Virus record (IMG/VR): IMGVR_UViG_3300027986_000324
Span: 1 to 54,057 of that record
Reading direction: 5' to 3' (one strand)
DNA: 54,057 nucleotides
DNA from: a virus
Lineage: Duplodnaviria; Caudoviricetes
The notes beneath the pieces are model-generated. The model did no database searches. It saw only the letters and a program-made list of their open reading frames with translations, and was not told the origin of the DNA. Position 1 is the first letter of the stretch; every line of letters starts with the position of its first letter. This document shows positions 6,409-24,822 of this stretch, piece by piece. The translations under genes were made by a program, and so were the position numbers.

Positions 6409-7713
6409 TTAGTCATGCACCCCGATGCAGTCCAGCGTCCCCGAAATCGAGGTATGAGAGCCGCCATCATTAAGCTTGAAGACAGACACCAGGATGTTGC
6501 CCGCGTTCTTGGGCGCTCCATAGAAGCCGGCGAAGACCGGAATGTTCGGAGTATCCACCGAACAGACAGCCGTGTAACTGGTGTCCGCAAAGCTCGCGTT
6601 CCAGCTTAGCGTGATGTTGCATCCATCAAAGCTTCCCGTGGTCACTGTGCAGGACCACGACTGGCGGACGTGTTGAAAGCCGGTGCCCGAATTGAGCACG
6701 CCTGTATCTACCTCCAGTTTGCCGACAGCAGCCGTTACGGTTGCATCCGATCCTGCGATAGTGCCGAATATCGCCTTTGTGGCGGAAGCAGCGATTCCCA
6801 ACTGTACATCCGCAGTGTTATCAGGCGACCTTGCCGTGACGCAAATTCCTGCCGAGCCGGAGCTGCCACAACGGAAAGATCCAGATTGCGCAGCATTGGT
6901 GTGCCCGTTGTCAATAAATGCTGTTCCGCTGTAGGTGCTTGAACTGGAAGCCGGACCGGAAAGGCTTACCCCAGCGCTTGCCCCCAGCGCAGTAATGTTG
7001 CTCGCATTCACCAGCACCACACACACGTCGCCATTCCCGGCCGCATTGCGCGCCGCCACCAGGCACACATTGTTCCCGCCCGCCAGGTCTCCGCTCTGCG
7101 CCGGCGCGGAGGAGAAATCGAGAAAGCGTTGCGCCTGCAGACCGCCCGTGGACAGTGTGCCGTATTGCAGCACGTCTGCCAGGTTCCCCGTGCCGGCCGC
7201 CGCCACGCCCCCCTGTTTGAATCCGATGTCCGCGGCGTTCGCGATATTTCTCCAGTTGACCAGATCTCCGTTAGCCATGCGGATAAACCCGGACGTAGCT
7301 GGGTTCGCCGAAGCGGAAACCACCTGGTTCAACGACCCCAGGTTCGGCGCCGTGATGCCGTCAATCGTGTATTGCGTCGTACCAGTGGCGCAATTGGTTC
7401 CCCCGCTGCTGGACACGATGAACTTGTAAGCCGATGAAGTGAGCCAGATCGAGGCCCGCCCTCCGGAGTCCAGGATCACCGGATTCGTGTTTTGCGAAGT
7501 GCCGGTCGAATCCGTGTAGGTAGCTTGCGGCGTCGTAGTGCCGGCAGCATCAGTAAAGACACAGCCGCCGGCGAGAGGCTTCCCGTTCACATCCAGAAAT
7601 TGCAGCTTCGGCACCGGCGCTATCGCCACCTGTACTTGCGCCCGTCCAAGGCAGGACAGAGCCAGGAAAGACAATACGCACAGCGATGCGCGAACAAGGA
7701 TCCGCTTCTTCAT
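6409..7713 (-). CDS. tailspike/fibre with podovirus particle-binding N-domain, preceded by a signal peptide
   Basis: PKLQFLDVNGKPLAGG..T.AAGTTTP.ATYTD..G...NTNPVILDSGGRA.IWL is the usual attachment domain of P22-like spikes; MKKRILVRASLCVLSFLALSCLGRA precedes it; AAGGAG RBS. Confidence 0.85.
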   Translation of the reverse strand: MKKRILVRASLCVLSFLALSCLGRAQVQVAIAPVPKLQFLDVNGKPLAGGCVFTDAAGTTTPQATYTDSTGTSQNTNPVILDSGGRASIWLTSSAYKFIVSSSGGTNCATGTTQYTIDGITAPNLGSLNQVVSASANPATSGFIRMANGDLVNWRNIANAADIGFKQGGVAAAGTGNLADVLQYGTLSTGGLQAQRFLDFSSAPAQSGDLAGGNNVCLVAARNAAGNGDVCVVLVNASNITALGASAGVSLSGPASSSSTYSGTAFIDNGHTNAAQSGSFRCGSSGSAGICVTARSPDNTADVQLGIAASATKAIFGTIAGSDATVTAAVGKLEVDTGVLNSGTGFQHVRQSWSCTVTTGSFDGCNITLSWNASFADTSYTAVCSVDTPNIPVFAGFYGAPKNAGNILVSVFKLNDGGSHTSISGTLDCIGVHD

Positions 7714-7725
7714 GGTTCAATCTCC

Positions 7726-9060
7726 TTAGTGGACGTCGTACCCGATCAGCGTTACGGATTCGCTCTCGTTGGCCAGCGAGGCCGCGAATTCCAGGGTCAT
7801 TGCCGTGTTGGCCGTGCCAATCTGATTTAGCCCACACAAGTGCACACTTCCATGTTGCGCTGCAGTGTTCGCCGCCGCGATCTGCGTAGACCATAGGACC
7901 GTTCCCGCGCCCGTAGCTCCATCGCGTAGGTTAATCGTTAGAACGGTCGCAGTCGGCGCTGTGGACGCGCCTGCCGACACCGACACGCAATCGGCCACAT
8001 GCCGCACTCCAGCGCCGCCGGCTGCCTTGCTGGCCGTCGCCTGCGAGCCCGCAGCGGGAGAGCTCACCACGCCGGGCCAGCGCGATCCCTTCTCCATCAT
8101 CGGCACACCCACATTCAGGGAATTGCCCAGAAACGCGGAAGACGTAATCGGAGGGAAGGCAGTCTGGAAAACACAAAGGGGACAAAGCTCGGAAGTGATG
8201 GCCAGGGTCGTTGTCGTGCTGCCACCATTGTTCGTGAAACGGATGCGCACATTTTCCGAGGTCATCTGGAAGGTGAGCGCCATCAGCGGCGAGTTCGCCA
8301 CCGATGCCGGCACGGTGATACTCGGACTACTCAAGTCAGGGCTCGAGCAATTGGCGTTCTTGCACTGGTCCACAATCAGCGTGCCAGGCTGGTCCGTCAC
8401 AATGTTCACCTGGTAGCTGCTGATGCCCAGGGTCGAAGTGTATGTCCCCGTAAAAGTCGCGGACGAAGCCAGTTGCGCCGTCGTCGTGTTGTTTGTGTCT
8501 CGGACAACGTTCTGCACGATATTAAAAGGGGTACCAGTGCTACCGGCGGGAGGCTGGACCGTCAGAACCGGCCCGGCAGGCGTACCAGCCGTCCCCCCAG
8601 CAGGAGCTGGGGCCGGCTCAATCGGCTTGCCAGAAAGCAGCAGGACTATGTTGGGCGCTCCGCTCCCGATCGCGGATTGCCGCACTCTGAAGTTCGTAGT
8701 GGCGTAAGCGCCGCAGTTCCAGGCCCGGGACTGGTTCGAAGGCAGCGCTTCGCTGCTCTCCTGCAGCGGCGTGTCACCGCGGCTGCAGTTCCTGAGATCC
8801 CAGGTCCGGCCGCCGTCCGGCGTGTACTCGAAAACCAGCGTTGACCCGGCATAGGTTCCACTCACGCCGATGCCAACCGATCCGTAATTAGCGCTGGTCA
8901 CCGTCAGGCATGCGGTTGCAGGGCAGTTATTGTCCGCTTGGGTGTAGGCCGTGGTGAGCTGCGCGGAGTAAGAAACATCCGACTGAGCCACCAGCAGCGG
9001 CGAGCAACAAAAAAGCGCTGCACAGAGCAGCGCCACCATCACGATATTGGATTTTTGCAT
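7726..9060 (-). CDS. beta-rich virion/fibre-associated protein with signal peptide
   Basis: Start MQKSNIVMVALLCAALFCCSPLLVA-Q; Thr/Ser/Gly-rich beta domains; located between the ejection and spike genes. Confidence 0.7.
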   Translation of the reverse strand: MQKSNIVMVALLCAALFCCSPLLVAQSDVSYSAQLTTAYTQADNNCPATACLTVTSANYGSVGIGVSGTYAGSTLVFEYTPDGGRTWDLRNCSRGDTPLQESSEALPSNQSRAWNCGAYATTNFRVRQSAIGSGAPNIVLLLSGKPIEPAPAPAGGTAGTPAGPVLTVQPPAGSTGTPFNIVQNVVRDTNNTTTAQLASSATFTGTYTSTLGISSYQVNIVTDQPGTLIVDQCKNANCSSPDLSSPSITVPASVANSPLMALTFQMTSENVRIRFTNNGGSTTTTLAITSELCPLCVFQTAFPPITSSAFLGNSLNVGVPMMEKGSRWPGVVSSPAAGSQATASKAAGGAGVRHVADCVSVSAGASTAPTATVLTINLRDGATGAGTVLWSTQIAAANTAAQHGSVHLCGLNQIGTANTAMTLEFAASLANESESVTLIGYDVH

Positions 9061-9088
9061 TTCCTTTTCTATTTGCCTCCGTGTCCCA

Positions 9089-23461: not shown

Positions 23462-23497
23462 AAAGTGATTTCTCCTTTGTCGCGAAAAGTGTGAACA

Positions 23498-23700
23498 AAC
23501 TCGGCAGAAGGTTGAGAGAGAGAACCTGCGCCCACCATGCAGCGGTCATGGAAACCGGGCATCCCCAGCTGCCCGGCGCGCCCCTTGCACCCCTAACTGC
23601 ATGGCGACATTCGCGGCGATTACCCGCCGCGCGCCCACCAACTCTTCAGGAGAGAATTGGAAACCGCTGTGAAGCAGAAGGCCCGCTTTTCTCTGCCGAA
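23498..23700 (-). ncRNA. candidate structured RNA in late-operon intergenic gap
   Basis: Multiple stems and two copies of CGGTTTCCA-stem-TGGTGGGCGC. Confidence 0.4.
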
Positions 23701-23715
23701 ACTCTGGATAGCTGC

Positions 23716-24822
23716 TTAAATCGGGTAATACGTGTAGTGGATGATTCCACCCGGTGAGTTCGTGGTTGTGGCCGTGGTCGCGGCACATTGGAATGTCACC
23801 GTCAACACTACGTCCTGCAAGTCCGTCTGCAGCAGGATGGGCGATGCCGGCGTGAAGGTCACCGTGTAGAAAGCTCCCGCCGTGGTTGTGGCCGTGTTGA
23901 ACGACCCCACCACGGGAGTAATCGCCATCGTTCCCGAATCGAGCCTTGCCGGCGCGACCGTGGAAGGGGTTTCCGACGCGCCAGAGGCCGGATAGGTCAC
24001 CTGCCCGAACACAATCGAGCTGTTGAACGTTCCCGAGGCCAGCGTGTTGGCCTGCGTTCCAAGCGCACCGCCCTGTACTCCGTAATAAAACACGAAGTTC
24101 GTCAGGTAGACGCCCTTGCCCGGCTGCGTGTTGGACAGCCGCTGCGGAACGTGGACTTTACAGACGTATGTATGGGTGTTCGTACCCGTCGAGGATGTCT
24201 GCGCCTGGACAACGGGAGTGGCGGAAGCGCCCGTGGTGGTAAAGCCGTTCGTTCCCGTCGAGTTGCCGGAAACGCTCGAATTGCACTGGGAAAAGGTAAA
24301 CGGGATCGCGCCGTCTGTGAACTTGTACGGCCACGGGCTTGCCTGCCTTACCCAGATGTTCGTGTTCGAGTCGCACGTGAAGACGTCCCCGCTTGCCGCT
24401 GAGACGGTAGGCAAGACAGGTTCAAGCGATGCCGTGCAGGACCCGTTTGGATCGAAGTTTTTGAAGAAGTTGGGCGGCCCCACGTAGACCGTAGCGCCGG
24501 ACACGTGGCCGCGAGCCTGCGTGCCCCAGATGCCGCGCGCCACGGACACAAGACCAGTGCTTGCGTTCACGCCCAGGACCTGCATGAACTCAGTGTCCAC
24601 CACCACGATGCTGCCGTTTTGATTGCCCTGCGTGGGTGCGGTGAAGCCGGTGAGCGAAGCGGGCTGGATCTGCGTCTGTAGCACCACGCCGCCCGTCGCA
24701 GATGTGCCGCCGTTTACGGCAGCAGAGAGAGTCGTCTGTTGCAGTGTGGACTGTCCCAGCGCAGCCATGCTCGCCAGGACCGCCATCAGAAAAACACCAA
24801 AAGTTTTCGTCAGGAACCTCAT
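23716..24822 (-). CDS. putative head decoration/fibre protein with signal peptide
   Basis: Directly after the coat gene; GAGGAG RBS; MRFLTKTFGVFLMAVLASMAALG-QSTLQQTTLSAAV; V.RG..GT.A..H.SGATV beta domain. Confidence 0.75.
   Translation of the reverse strand: MRFLTKTFGVFLMAVLASMAALGQSTLQQTTLSAAVNGGTSATGGVVLQTQIQPASLTGFTAPTQGNQNGSIVVVDTEFMQVLGVNASTGLVSVARGIWGTQARGHVSGATVYVGPPNFFKNFDPNGSCTASLEPVLPTVSAASGDVFTCDSNTNIWVRQASPWPYKFTDGAIPFTFSQCNSSVSGNSTGTNGFTTTGASATPVVQAQTSSTGTNTHTYVCKVHVPQRLSNTQPGKGVYLTNFVFYYGVQGGALGTQANTLASGTFNSSIVFGQVTYPASGASETPSTVAPARLDSGTMAITPVVGSFNTATTTAGAFYTVTFTPASPILLQTDLQDVVLTVTFQCAATTATTTNSPGGIIHYTYYPI

What the first reader, a model, noticed from the sequence alone, without database searches (positions are those of the whole stretch)
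6409..24822. Four outer virion proteins carry Sec signal peptides: possible extracytoplasmic virion completion
Seen: the spike (7713, MKKRILVRASLCVLSFLALSCLGRA), its neighbour (9060, MQKSNIVMVALLCAALFCCSPLLVA), the large fibre (19904, MMARFWKEFWFGFALTVLAILALFARSAGA) and the post-capsid decoration-like gene (24822, MRFLTKTFGVFLMAVLASMAALG) each have basic n-, hydrophobic h- and small-residue c-regions, with a good RBS or coupled start. In the spike, the normal particle-binding domain begins right after the predicted cut. Coat, portal, gp4-like, gp10-like and GNAT proteins have no such leader. Known: tailed phages assemble in the cytoplasm, and P22 tailspikes add last and can attach to heads in vitro. 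Inference: appendages are exported, folded in the periplasm and added to particles during or after inner-membrane breach. Alternatively they double as secreted receptor-blocking or depolymerase proteins. I know of no described tailed-phage pathway like this.
Basis: partly seen in the sequence, partly recalled or inferred. Interest (0 to 1): 0.92.

Follow-up and report, generated by a model that had tools for sequence, protein, structure and literature searches.

The report
Phage tail spikes carrying secretion signals
A prophage in a soil Acidobacteriota genome puts host-type secretion leaders on its tailspike and other appendage proteins, which suggests that these parts fold outside the cytoplasm and join the virus particle only late, a route not described for tailed phages.

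Summary
The window is a P22-like prophage cut from an Acidobacteriota MAG ('Candidatus Angelobacter'). Spike, neighbour, large fibre and post-coat protein each start with a basic n-region, a hydrophobic h-region and a small-residue cut site. All four have Gln at +1, the commonest +1 residue in the host's own leader-like proteins (18 of 52).

The spike's P22-type head-binding domain starts about 10 residues after the cut. Cultured proteobacterial podophages have the same domain with no leader, so the leader is an add-on.

It recurs: 56 of 120 spike-domain relatives, 73 of 120 post-coat relatives and 116 of 150 neighbour relatives carry leaders. Leader-bearing spikes are Cys-rich with an even Cys count in 50 of 56, against 27 of 49 leaderless, a mark of disulfide folding after export. 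My strict scan hit 0 of 300 large ORFs in leaderless-type phage contigs.

Export is well supported. Attachment to particles after membrane breach is inferred, and virion membership is firm only for the spike. SignalP was not available. Six literature searches found no precedent.

The parts
6409..7713 (-). Tailspike, 434 aa: leader residues 1-25, Gln26 at +1, head-binding domain about 35-125, 10 Cys in the mature part
7639..7713 (-). Spike signal-peptide coding part (residues 1-25), AAGGAG upstream of the ATG
   Evidence: AF2 models residues 2-23 as a helix
7339..7611 (-). Spike P22-type head-binding (particle-binding) domain, residues about 35-125
   Evidence: phmmer vs PDB 9vyg and 7eeq. Foldseek 9vyg, 7eeq, 2vky, 2xc1 at prob 1.00. 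tblastn to tail spikes of cultured podophages
7726..9060 (-). Neighbour protein, 444 aa: leader 1-25, Gln26 at +1, 10 Cys, modular C-terminal domain about 305-443. Function unknown
16611..19904 (-). Large fibre, 1097 aa: leader 1-30, Gln31 at +1, then a QQIDW..NKP motif. Relatives carry the pectate-lyase-type PF12708 domain. 7 Cys
19904..20257 (-). 117-aa leaderless, Cys-free ORF whose TGA overlaps the fibre ATG. Conserved next to the fibre in L006 and L007. Possible docking adaptor (inference only)
   Evidence: No PDB or PHROG match
23716..24822 (-). Post-coat fibre-like protein, 368 aa: leader 1-23, invariant Gln24, N-terminal fibre-type module, lectin/CBM-like C-terminal part, four conserved Cys plus one more
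24913..26130 (-). P22-type coat protein, no leader (internal control)
   Evidence: PF11651 E 4e-25, phrog_283
20316..22154 (-). gp10-like head-closure protein (Hc3), no leader
   Evidence: phrog_578 E 3e-91
22158..22886 (-). gp4-like head-tail adaptor (Ad3), no leader
   Evidence: phrog_12985 and phrog_637
9089..16027 (-). Three ejection / internal virion proteins (432, 612 and 1182 aa), all with 0 Cys and no Sec-type leader
   Evidence: phrog_598 'DNA ejection', Cys counts
27367..29661 (-). Portal-sized protein (764 aa) conserved in related phages, no leader

Best explanation
The four proteins are appendages of a P22-like temperate podophage of an Acidobacteriota host, and they are made as Sec pre-proteins. 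The leader takes them across the inner membrane, and signal peptidase I cuts before a Gln that the host glutaminyl cyclase can turn into pyroglutamate. They fold, trimerise and form disulfides in the periplasm. DNA-filled particles, closed by the leaderless gp4-like and gp10-like proteins, assemble in the cytoplasm. The two pools meet only when the inner membrane is breached at lysis. The spike then docks through its P22-type head-binding domain, a step that works with purified parts in P22 (recalled). The same exported pool could also act on the cell's own surface polysaccharide.

Shown here: the leaders, their host-like cut sites, that they are additions, their recurrence across a phage lineage, the Cys-parity signature, and the head-binding domain.

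Inferred: actual export and cleavage, disulfides, and the time and place of attachment.
For: 1. n/h/c anatomy with Gln at +1 in 4 of 4. The host's leader-like proteins have Gln at +1 in 18 of 52, and the host has PF05096 glutaminyl cyclase.

2. Gln24 is invariant in 40 of 40 post-coat homologs although the leader sequences differ.

3. The head-binding domain follows the cut. In Xanthomonas phage PBR31 and Pseudoalteromonas phage H6/1 the annotated tailspike CDS starts at that domain, right after the internal/ejection protein gene.

4. Recurrence: 56 of 120 spike-domain relatives carry a leader, and most of a further 12 look like leaders behind over-called starts. So do 73 of 120 post-coat relatives, 116 of 150 neighbour relatives and 3 of 8 fibre relatives.

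5. All 7 leader-type viral loci that I mapped carry the spike inside the same Hc3/ejection module, and 5 of the 7 follow it with 1-3 more leader-bearing Cys-rich ORFs. The first set of relatives looks alike.

6. Even Cys counts: 50 of 56 leader-bearing against 27 of 49 leaderless spikes, medians 8 against 2, Mann-Whitney p 1e-10. Host leader proteins show 15 of 18 even, non-leader host ORFs 96 of 191.

7. Control: 0 of 300 large ORFs in leaderless-type loci are leader-like.

8. No room or signal for separate expression: intergenic gaps of 12 and 28 nt, and promoter- and terminator-like sites no more frequent than in shuffles.
Against: No trained predictor (SignalP) could be run; the scan is my own heuristic.

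Homologs are related, so the parity p-values overstate independence.

The window's fibre has 7 Cys and its post-coat protein 5. Both are odd, and the small fibre family shows no parity signal.

Only the spike has a demonstrated particle-binding domain. The neighbour has none that I recognise.

Many relatives of the neighbour and post-coat proteins are short leader-plus-C-domain proteins. Four post-coat clusters carry a 90-140 aa extension before the hydrophobic segment. Both look more like secreted or membrane-anchored proteins than virion parts.

No holin, endolysin or spanin was recognised, so the breach step has no identified machinery.

There are no expression or proteome data.
Confidence: 0.55

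Rival explanations
1. The proteins are exported but are not virion parts, or only some of them are. They act in the periplasm or on the cell surface of the lysogen or the infected cell, as receptor-destroying, receptor-masking or matrix-degrading proteins that give superinfection exclusion or prevent progeny trapping.
For: The neighbour and post-coat families are almost wholly leader-bearing and include many short forms with a leader and a C-terminal domain only (33 of 120; many 140-250 aa entries). Four post-coat clusters have a cytoplasmic-looking N-terminal extension before the hydrophobic segment. The post-coat C-terminal part is lectin/CBM-like. A lipoprotein-like ORF sits next to the spike.
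Against: The spike keeps a conserved P22-type head-binding domain, 49.5% identical to that of a cultured phage's tail spike. I recognised no leaderless appendage protein in the window, so the particle would lack a receptor-binding protein. The genes are packed inside the late structural operon. The post-coat N-module is the common N-module of Caudovirales fibre proteins.
Confidence: 0.17
2. Two forms are made. A leader-bearing exported form and a leaderless cytoplasmic form arise from internal initiation or inefficient export, and only the cytoplasmic one is built into particles in the usual way.
For: 12 of 14 leader-type spike genes with DNA in hand have an in-frame ATG, GTG or TTG within -2 to +15 residues of the cut. 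In the window, GTG at Val29 lies where leaderless homologs start. L021 has an ATG there.
Against: 0 of 14 of these internal codons have a Shine-Dalgarno-like motif 5-16 nt upstream, against 7 of 14 of the leader starts. L014 and L050 have no such codon. GTG is simply a common Val codon at this G+C. The high, even Cys counts fit a protein that folds in an oxidising compartment.
Confidence: 0.12
3. The hydrophobic N-terminus is not cleaved. It acts as a membrane anchor or release-on-depolarisation tether (SAR-like), or as a hydrophobic element of the particle.
For: AF2 models the leaders as single helices. Phage SAR endolysins set a precedent for Sec-dependent tethering released at lysis (recalled).
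Against: Small residues at -3 and -1 and a conserved Gln at +1 point to cleavage: Gln24 is invariant in 40 of 40, and +1 is Gln in 39 of 56, 42 of 73 and 64 of 116. The h-regions are rich in Leu, Val and Phe, not Gly and Ala. Eighteen uncleaved helices at the head-binding domains of six trimers would be hard to fit (inference).
Confidence: 0.08
4. Artefact: mis-called starts or chance hydrophobic N-termini.
For: Start codons are inferred, and database proteins come from automatic gene calls.
Against: Leaders are conserved as a feature, not as a sequence, across hundreds of clusters. The control gave 0 of 300. RBS or coupled starts are present.
Confidence: 0.02

Closest known systems
P22-type podophage tailspikes with N-terminal head-binding domain (P22 gp9 2vky/2xc1; cyanophage Pam1 7eeq; Pan3 9vyg; Xanthomonas phage PBR31 tail spike)
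   Same: Same N-terminal domain by sequence and fold. Same gene position after the ejection proteins. Modular, variable C-terminal parts (PF12708, PF07484, PF13884).
   Different: Known members start at the domain and fold in the cytoplasm. This one has a 25-residue Sec-type leader in front and 10 Cys.
Exported phage lysis proteins: SAR endolysins, signal-peptide endolysins, spanin lipoproteins (recalled, no call)
   Same: Tailed-phage late proteins that use the host Sec system and wait in the envelope until lysis.
   Different: Those are lysis enzymes, not particle components, and SAR domains are not cleaved. Here the cargo is receptor-binding appendages with cleavable-looking leaders.
Filamentous phage coat proteins pVIII and pIII (recalled, no call)
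   Same: Virion proteins made with leaders, cut by signal peptidase I and added to the particle outside the cytoplasm.
   Different: Inoviruses assemble wholly at the membrane by extrusion. Here only the outer appendages of an icosahedral, cytoplasmically packaged tailed phage would follow that route.
Porphyromonas gingivalis phage proteins that obey the Bacteroidetes Q-rule (PMC10367356, passages read; Q-rule papers PMC5837995 and PMC10653852, abstracts in listing only)
   Same: Phage genes with Sec/SPase I leaders and Gln at +1, read as adaptation to the host's secretion system.
   Different: Those five genes are of unknown function and are discussed as modifiers of the host surface. No tailspike or head-binding domain is reported, and the host phylum differs.
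Prophage-encoded envelope proteins such as Bor, Lom, Llp and Cor (recalled, no call)
   Same: Prophage genes near the tail genes that carry signal peptides.
   Different: They are small lysogenic-conversion or exclusion proteins with their own expression, not homologs of virion appendages.
Pantoea stewartii WceF, a bacterial glycan-modifying enzyme with a tailspike-like fold (PMC7949094, search listing and abstract start only)
   Same: A tailspike-like protein that acts outside the cytoplasm.
   Different: It is host-encoded and not part of a phage. I did not read whether it has a head-binding domain.

Membership tests
Sec / signal peptidase I signal peptide | Positively charged n-region | tested here: met
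   Net charge of the n-region is +4 (spike), +1 (neighbour), +1 (fibre) and +2 (post-coat)
Sec / signal peptidase I signal peptide | Uncharged hydrophobic h-region of about 8-20 residues | tested here: met
   h-regions of 14-20 residues with mean Kyte-Doolittle 1.7-2.7. Modelled as a helix at residues 2-19 and 2-23
Sec / signal peptidase I signal peptide | Small residues at -3 and -1 (AXA-type c-region) | tested here: met
   GRA|Q, LVA|Q, AGA|Q, ALG|Q
Sec / signal peptidase I signal peptide | Cut site like that of the host's own exported proteins | tested here: met
   Gln at +1 in 4 of 4, and in 18 of 52 host leader-like proteins from 267 ORFs in 20 host stretches
Sec / signal peptidase I signal peptide | Positive call by a trained predictor (SignalP, DeepTMHMM) | not testable with these tools
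   No such tool was offered; my own heuristic was used instead
Sec / signal peptidase I signal peptide | Demonstrated export and cleavage | not testable with these tools
   Needs experiment. The indirect mark is even Cys counts in leader-bearing relatives
Lipoprotein (signal peptidase II) signal | Lipobox L-[AS]-[GA]-C at the cut | tested here: not met
   No lipobox in the four leaders. The fibre homolog in L006 (..LSICANC|QQ) is ambiguous
Tat signal | Twin-arginine motif in the n-region | tested here: not met
   No RR in the four leaders. One spike homolog (L021) has RRRR
P22-type tailspike | N-terminal head-binding domain | tested here: met
   (9vyg, 7eeq, 2vky, 2xc1)
P22-type tailspike | Domain at the very N-terminus of the primary translation product | tested here: not met
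   It begins at about residue 35, after a 25-residue leader. It would be N-terminal only after cleavage
P22-type tailspike | Trimeric beta-helix or fibre body with a receptor-binding or enzymatic part | tested here: inconclusive
   The monomer AF2 model has pLDDT below 50 over most of residues 126-343, and only the C-terminal beta-sandwich 345-434 is confident. No Pfam hit
P22-type tailspike | Presence in the virion | not testable with these tools
   No proteome. The host is an uncultured MAG
SAR (signal-arrest-release) domain | Weakly hydrophobic Gly/Ala-rich N-terminal helix without a cleavage site | tested here: not met
   The h-regions are rich in Leu, Val and Phe, with AXA-type sites and conserved Gln at +1. 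The SAR definition is recalled

The most novel reading that the evidence does not exclude
A whole lineage of P22-like tailed phages, found in Acidobacteriota prophages and soil viral contigs, finishes its virions outside the cytoplasm. Every receptor-binding appendage is matured by the host's Sec translocon, signal peptidase I, disulfide machinery and glutaminyl cyclase, then snaps onto cytoplasm-built particles only after the inner membrane opens. Host range would then depend on the host's secretion and envelope-folding systems. The exported appendages could also act on the dying cell's own envelope before release.
Probability: 0.45. Interest if true: 0.92.

Novelty: new variant of a known kind. 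Interest (0 to 1): 0.85.

Why it matters
Textbook tailed-phage assembly is wholly cytoplasmic, and papers treat the lack of a signal peptide as a mark of phage structural proteins (PMC6199706 passage; figure legend in bioRxiv 10.64898/2026.09.13.751334).

A lineage whose tailspikes and fibres are Sec substrates would add an extracytoplasmic step to Caudoviricetes morphogenesis. It would tie host range to the host's secretion, Dsb and glutaminyl-cyclase systems. It would also explain Cys-rich, presumably disulfide-stabilised appendages in soil phages.

There is a practical side. Annotation pipelines that discard signal-peptide proteins as non-structural, or count them as secreted auxiliary enzymes, would mislabel these genes. 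Recombinant production of such depolymerases would need periplasmic or oxidising expression.

The claim is directly testable with leader fusions, virion N-terminomics and in vitro complementation.

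Tried and rejected
Sequence searches of the PDB with the fibre, post-coat, neighbour and 117-aa proteins gave nothing significant.

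Pfam and PHROGs gave no family for the neighbour or the fibre. They gave only an unnamed PHROG for the spike and a partial 'tail protein' hit for the post-coat protein.

The spike N-domain was not found in 400 other sampled genomes of the host's phylum at E 1e-5. The post-coat family matched 5 of 300 other genomes of the host's order. Two of these are leader-bearing proteins; three are long leaderless proteins that share only the N-module.

Cluster look-up gave no organism names, so I could not say which phyla host the leader-bearing relatives. An idea that they are mostly Bacteroidota and Acidobacteriota rests only on the Gln at +1 and Lys-rich leaders, and I do not claim it.

The promoter and terminator scan showed nothing above shuffles.

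No holin, endolysin or spanin was recognised among 30 further ORFs scanned.

Sequencing runs: one DNA run, possibly the source sample, holds the stretch. No RNA holder is listed.

Foldseek of the post-coat model against the PDB gave only weak lectin/CBM-like and Cry-toxin domain matches (TM below 0.25), which I do not interpret beyond 'beta-sandwich'. The Atlas hit to an XepA-domain cluster (score 0.88) is below the tool's own threshold and was dropped.

Literature: six searches and passages from five papers gave no description of signal peptides on tailed-phage tailspikes. One search returned 0 papers. Supplementary files were not opened. Supplementary Data 4 of PMC10367356 might name the five leader-bearing genes.

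Rows dropped before counts: 3 N-terminally truncated proteins and 12 'long' proteins were kept apart from the leader-bearing against leaderless comparison. In one search, 8 of 80 loci ('other' or 'nostart', probably frame or start problems) were left out of the comparison. In one search, I mapped 7 of the 8 leader-type loci; L052 has a 142-aa ORF and was omitted.

Full report
WHAT THE WINDOW IS. The 54,057-base window is a virus record cut from a 152,916-base contig of a metagenome-assembled genome titled 'Candidatus Angelobacter sp.' (Acidobacteriota). The gp10-like gene matches that contig at 100%, and the window corresponds to contig C43 positions 3068-57124 of genome G001. On the minus strand lies a P22-like late operon:
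- a portal-sized gene (27367-29661) and a scaffold-like gene (26150-27280)
- the P22-type coat (24913-26130; PF11651 E 4e-25, phrog_283)
- the post-coat gene (23716-24822) and a 192-aa gene
- the gp4-like adaptor (22158-22886) and the gp10-like head closure (20316-22154; phrog_578 E 3e-91)
- a 117-aa gene (19904-20257) and the large fibre (16611-19904)
- a GNAT-like gene
- three ejection-type proteins (14729-16027, phrog_598 'DNA ejection'; 12890-14728; 9089-12637)
- the neighbour (7726-9060) and the spike (6409-7713)

An ORF at 52918-54057 closes the window. I read it as an integrase from its N-terminal sequence only (no family search was run).

THE OBSERVATION.
- The spike ATG follows AAGGAG, and the post-coat ATG follows GAGGAG.
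- The fibre ATG shares a base with the TGA of the 117-aa ORF.
- The neighbour has a weaker AAGGAA directly before its ATG.

SignalP was not available, so I wrote a simple n/h/c scan. It asks for a non-negative n-region charge, an uncharged stretch of 8-20 residues with mean hydropathy of at least 1.6, and small residues at -3 and -1. For the post-coat protein it chose a later site, but in an alignment of 40 homologs Gln24 is invariant while the leaders themselves vary.

In the window, a stricter version flags 6 of 26 ORFs of 250 aa or more. These are the four, a lipoprotein-like ORF (34596-35546) and a membrane-protein-like ORF (3303-4115). It flags none of coat, portal, adaptor, gp10-like or ejection proteins. 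As a control for chance, the same scan flags 0 of 300 such ORFs in 64 viral loci whose spike is leaderless, against 15 of 56 in 8 loci whose spike has a leader.

THE SPIKE IS A TAILSPIKE AND THE LEADER IS AN ADDITION. Residues 35-123 match 'Tail spike protein' chains of PDB 9vyg (E 8e-6) and the 'Tailspike head-binding domain' 7eeq (E 1.6e-4). In both cases the match starts at residue 8-14 of the solved chain. An AlphaFold model (24-sequence alignment, mean pLDDT 57, with the N-domain at 70-87) was searched against the PDB. It finds the cyanopodophage Pan3 tail complex, the Pam1 tail machine, the P22 tailspike head-binding domain (2vky) and full-length P22 tailspike (2xc1), all at probability 1.00 over 92-143 columns.

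In 34 GenBank phage records (Xanthomonas, Vibrio, Rhodoferax, Pseudoalteromonas, Ralstonia, Pseudomonas and Shewanella hosts) the match begins at query residue 24-38 and never covers the leader. In Xanthomonas phage PBR31 and Pseudoalteromonas phage H6/1 the annotated tailspike CDS starts within a few codons of the match start. In both it directly follows the internal/ejection protein gene, as in the window.

Of 1441 database proteins that share the domain, I examined the 120 best:
- 56 have a leader in front of the domain, with Gln at +1 in 39 of them.
- 49 start at the domain.
- 12 have longer N-termini, most of which look like over-called starts that contain a leader.
- 3 are truncated.

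THE LEADERS LOOK LIKE THE HOST'S OWN. In 20 stretches (about 330 kb) of the host MAG, 52 of 267 ORFs have leader-like N-termini, and the residue after the predicted cut is Gln in 18 of them, by far the commonest. All four phage proteins have Gln there. The host encodes a glutaminyl cyclase (PF05096, E 5e-97). The Gln-after-cut rule has been described as specific to Bacteroidetes (abstracts of PMC5837995 and PMC10653852 in the listing), so its appearance in this genome is a side observation of its own.

A SIGNATURE OF OXIDATIVE FOLDING. Mature spike and neighbour each have 10 Cys (2.4%), several in close pairs. The three ejection proteins and the scaffold have none, and the coat and portal have 4 each.
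- Among spike-domain relatives, the Cys count of the mature part is even in 50 of 56 leader-bearing proteins (median 8, none with zero).
- In leaderless ones it is even in 27 of 49 (median 2, eight with zero). The Mann-Whitney test on Cys content gives p 1e-10.
- The neighbour family gives 105 of 116 even, and the post-coat family 59 of 73 even, mostly four conserved Cys.
- The host's own Gln+1 leader proteins give 15 of 18 even, against 96 of 191 for host ORFs without a leader.

An excess of even counts in exported proteins is the accepted genomic mark of disulfide formation (recalled). The p-values overstate independence because homologs share ancestry. The variable C-terminal parts of the spike family lessen that concern.

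Against this reading, the window's fibre has 7 Cys and its post-coat protein 5, and the small fibre family shows no parity pattern.

IT IS A LINEAGE TRAIT. Twenty-two viral contigs related through the gp10-like gene were fetched. In them the post-coat homolog carries a leader in L010, L006/L007, L012, L004, L015, L014, L021 and L013. In L005, L002 and L020 it starts directly at the conserved TTLSAA-type domain. Large leader-bearing, Cys-rich ORFs sit among the leaderless structural genes. L013 has three between adaptor and gp10-like plus two after the ejection genes. L002 has one of 1444 aa with 32 Cys.

A second fetch with the spike N-domain gave 80 loci: 64 leaderless, 8 with leader and 8 unclear. 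I mapped 7 of the 8 leader-type loci. All 7 belong to the same gp10-like/ejection module, GNAT-like included in three of them. In 5 of the 7 the spike is followed by one to three more leader-bearing Cys-rich ORFs.

In 300 other genomes of the host's order, five match the post-coat family, and two of these are leader-bearing proteins with 4 Cys.

WHAT THE OTHER THREE PROTEINS ARE.
- Post-coat protein. AF2 (mean pLDDT 75.7) gives a leader helix at residues 2-19 and then beta structure. Its N-module of about 90-100 residues is found in many Caudovirales proteins named tail fibre, Stf repeat or S74 peptidase proteins (BFVD), and in a chain of the Vibrio phage VP1 capsid entry 9in6 (prob 1.00, 117 columns). 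The C-terminal part gives only weak lectin/CBM-like hits. I read it as a fibre-like appendage with a sugar-binding tip. Whether it sits on the head or the tail is open.
- Fibre. Eight relatives were found besides the window's own protein. Three have leaders followed by the same QQ(I/V)DW..NKP motif. Four of the five leaderless ones have other N-terminal domains, and three of those carry PF12708.
- Neighbour. Its C-terminal domain (about 305-443) ends 1703 representative clusters of very different lengths. The nearest Atlas clusters are 90-100% viral. No particle-binding domain is evident, so its virion status is unproven.

RIVALS.
- Internal initiation giving a leaderless cytoplasmic form. 12 of 14 leader-type spike genes have some in-frame start-capable codon near the cut. 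None has a Shine-Dalgarno-like motif upstream, against 7 of 14 of the leader starts.
- Secreted, non-virion function. This is favoured by the many short leader-plus-C-domain relatives, and by four post-coat clusters with a 90-140 aa extension before the hydrophobic segment. The conserved head-binding domain speaks against it for the spike. So does the absence of any leaderless appendage gene that I could recognise in the window.
- Uncleaved anchor. The conserved small residues at -3 and -1 and the Gln at +1 argue against it.

WHAT IS NOT SHOWN. Export, cleavage, disulfides, virion presence and the moment of attachment are all inferred. No lysis genes were recognised. No RNA data are listed.

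LITERATURE. Six full-text searches found no report of signal peptides on tailed-phage tailspikes or fibres. The nearest is the note that five genes of unknown function in P. gingivalis phages carry leaders that obey the Q-rule (PMC10367356, passages). Two papers state the opposite expectation. [quoted passage not shown] A soil prophage survey found signal peptides on 5% of prophage carbohydrate-active enzymes, without linking them to virion parts (PMC13507307, passage).

VERDICT. Export with periplasmic folding is well supported by indirect but independent marks. Late, extracytoplasmic attachment to the particle is the most economical reading for the spike but is untested.

I rate the finding a new variant of a known kind (tailspikes and fibres) that, if the pathway is confirmed, would amount to a new assembly route for tailed phages.

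Noticed in passing
Host genome G001: loci L026-L044 (leader statistics) and L048 (G001:C60:28413-29105): The Acidobacteriota host shows a Q-rule-like bias: Gln follows the predicted signal-peptidase cut in 18 of 52 leader-like proteins. It also encodes a PF05096 glutaminyl cyclase. The Q-rule is described in print as specific to Bacteroidetes (abstracts only seen).
   Followed up: partly
window 29662-33440 (- strand): The large terminase is in two ORFs, Terminase_6N at 32655-33440 and Terminase_6C at 29662-30402. About 2.2 kb lies between them, holding a 146-aa ORF and a 334-aa ORF with two Cpn10 (GroES) matches whose translation contains a long internal tandem duplication. This could be an insertion, an intron or intein-like element, or an assembly artefact.
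   Followed up: partly
window 5800-6393 (+ strand): A 197-aa ORF convergent with the spike has a lipoprotein-like N-terminus (Cys-rich, Ser-rich after the hydrophobic part) and no family match. It is a candidate lysogenic-conversion or exclusion protein at the end of the prophage's late operon.
   Followed up: partly
window 34420-35546 (- strand) and the whole window: No holin, endolysin or spanin was recognised by Pfam or PHROGs. ORF 34596-35546 has an internal start (35282) that gives a lipoprotein-like leader, and a 58-aa hydrophobic ORF lies next to it. These may be a divergent lysis cassette.
   Followed up: partly
window 9089-12637 (- strand): The 1182-aa ejection-type protein carries a ddrB-like ParB superfamily domain (PF18763, E 3e-14, residues 804-940), an unusual domain for an internal virion protein.
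   Followed up: no
database proteins P0171, P0184, P0199, P0210 (post-coat family): Four clusters have a conserved 90-140 aa N-terminal extension in front of the hydrophobic segment. The 'leader' would then be an internal membrane segment, in a bitopic or polyprotein-like form.
   Followed up: no
L021:17776-19356: The spike homolog's leader has four consecutive Arg in its n-region. This is a possible Tat-type variant, which would export a folded protein.
   Followed up: no
window 7726-9060, residues about 305-443: The neighbour's C-terminal domain ends 1703 representative clusters (E up to 1e-3) of 74 to 1083 aa (listed hits). Most have leaders and two or more Cys. It looks like a large, unnamed, mostly viral exported-domain family.
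   Followed up: partly
L019, L016, L018: These three related contigs (coat 57-61% identical) lack the post-coat gene and show no leader-bearing ORF in the part fetched. The trait is therefore not universal among close relatives, or their appendage genes lie outside the fetched stretch.
   Followed up: no
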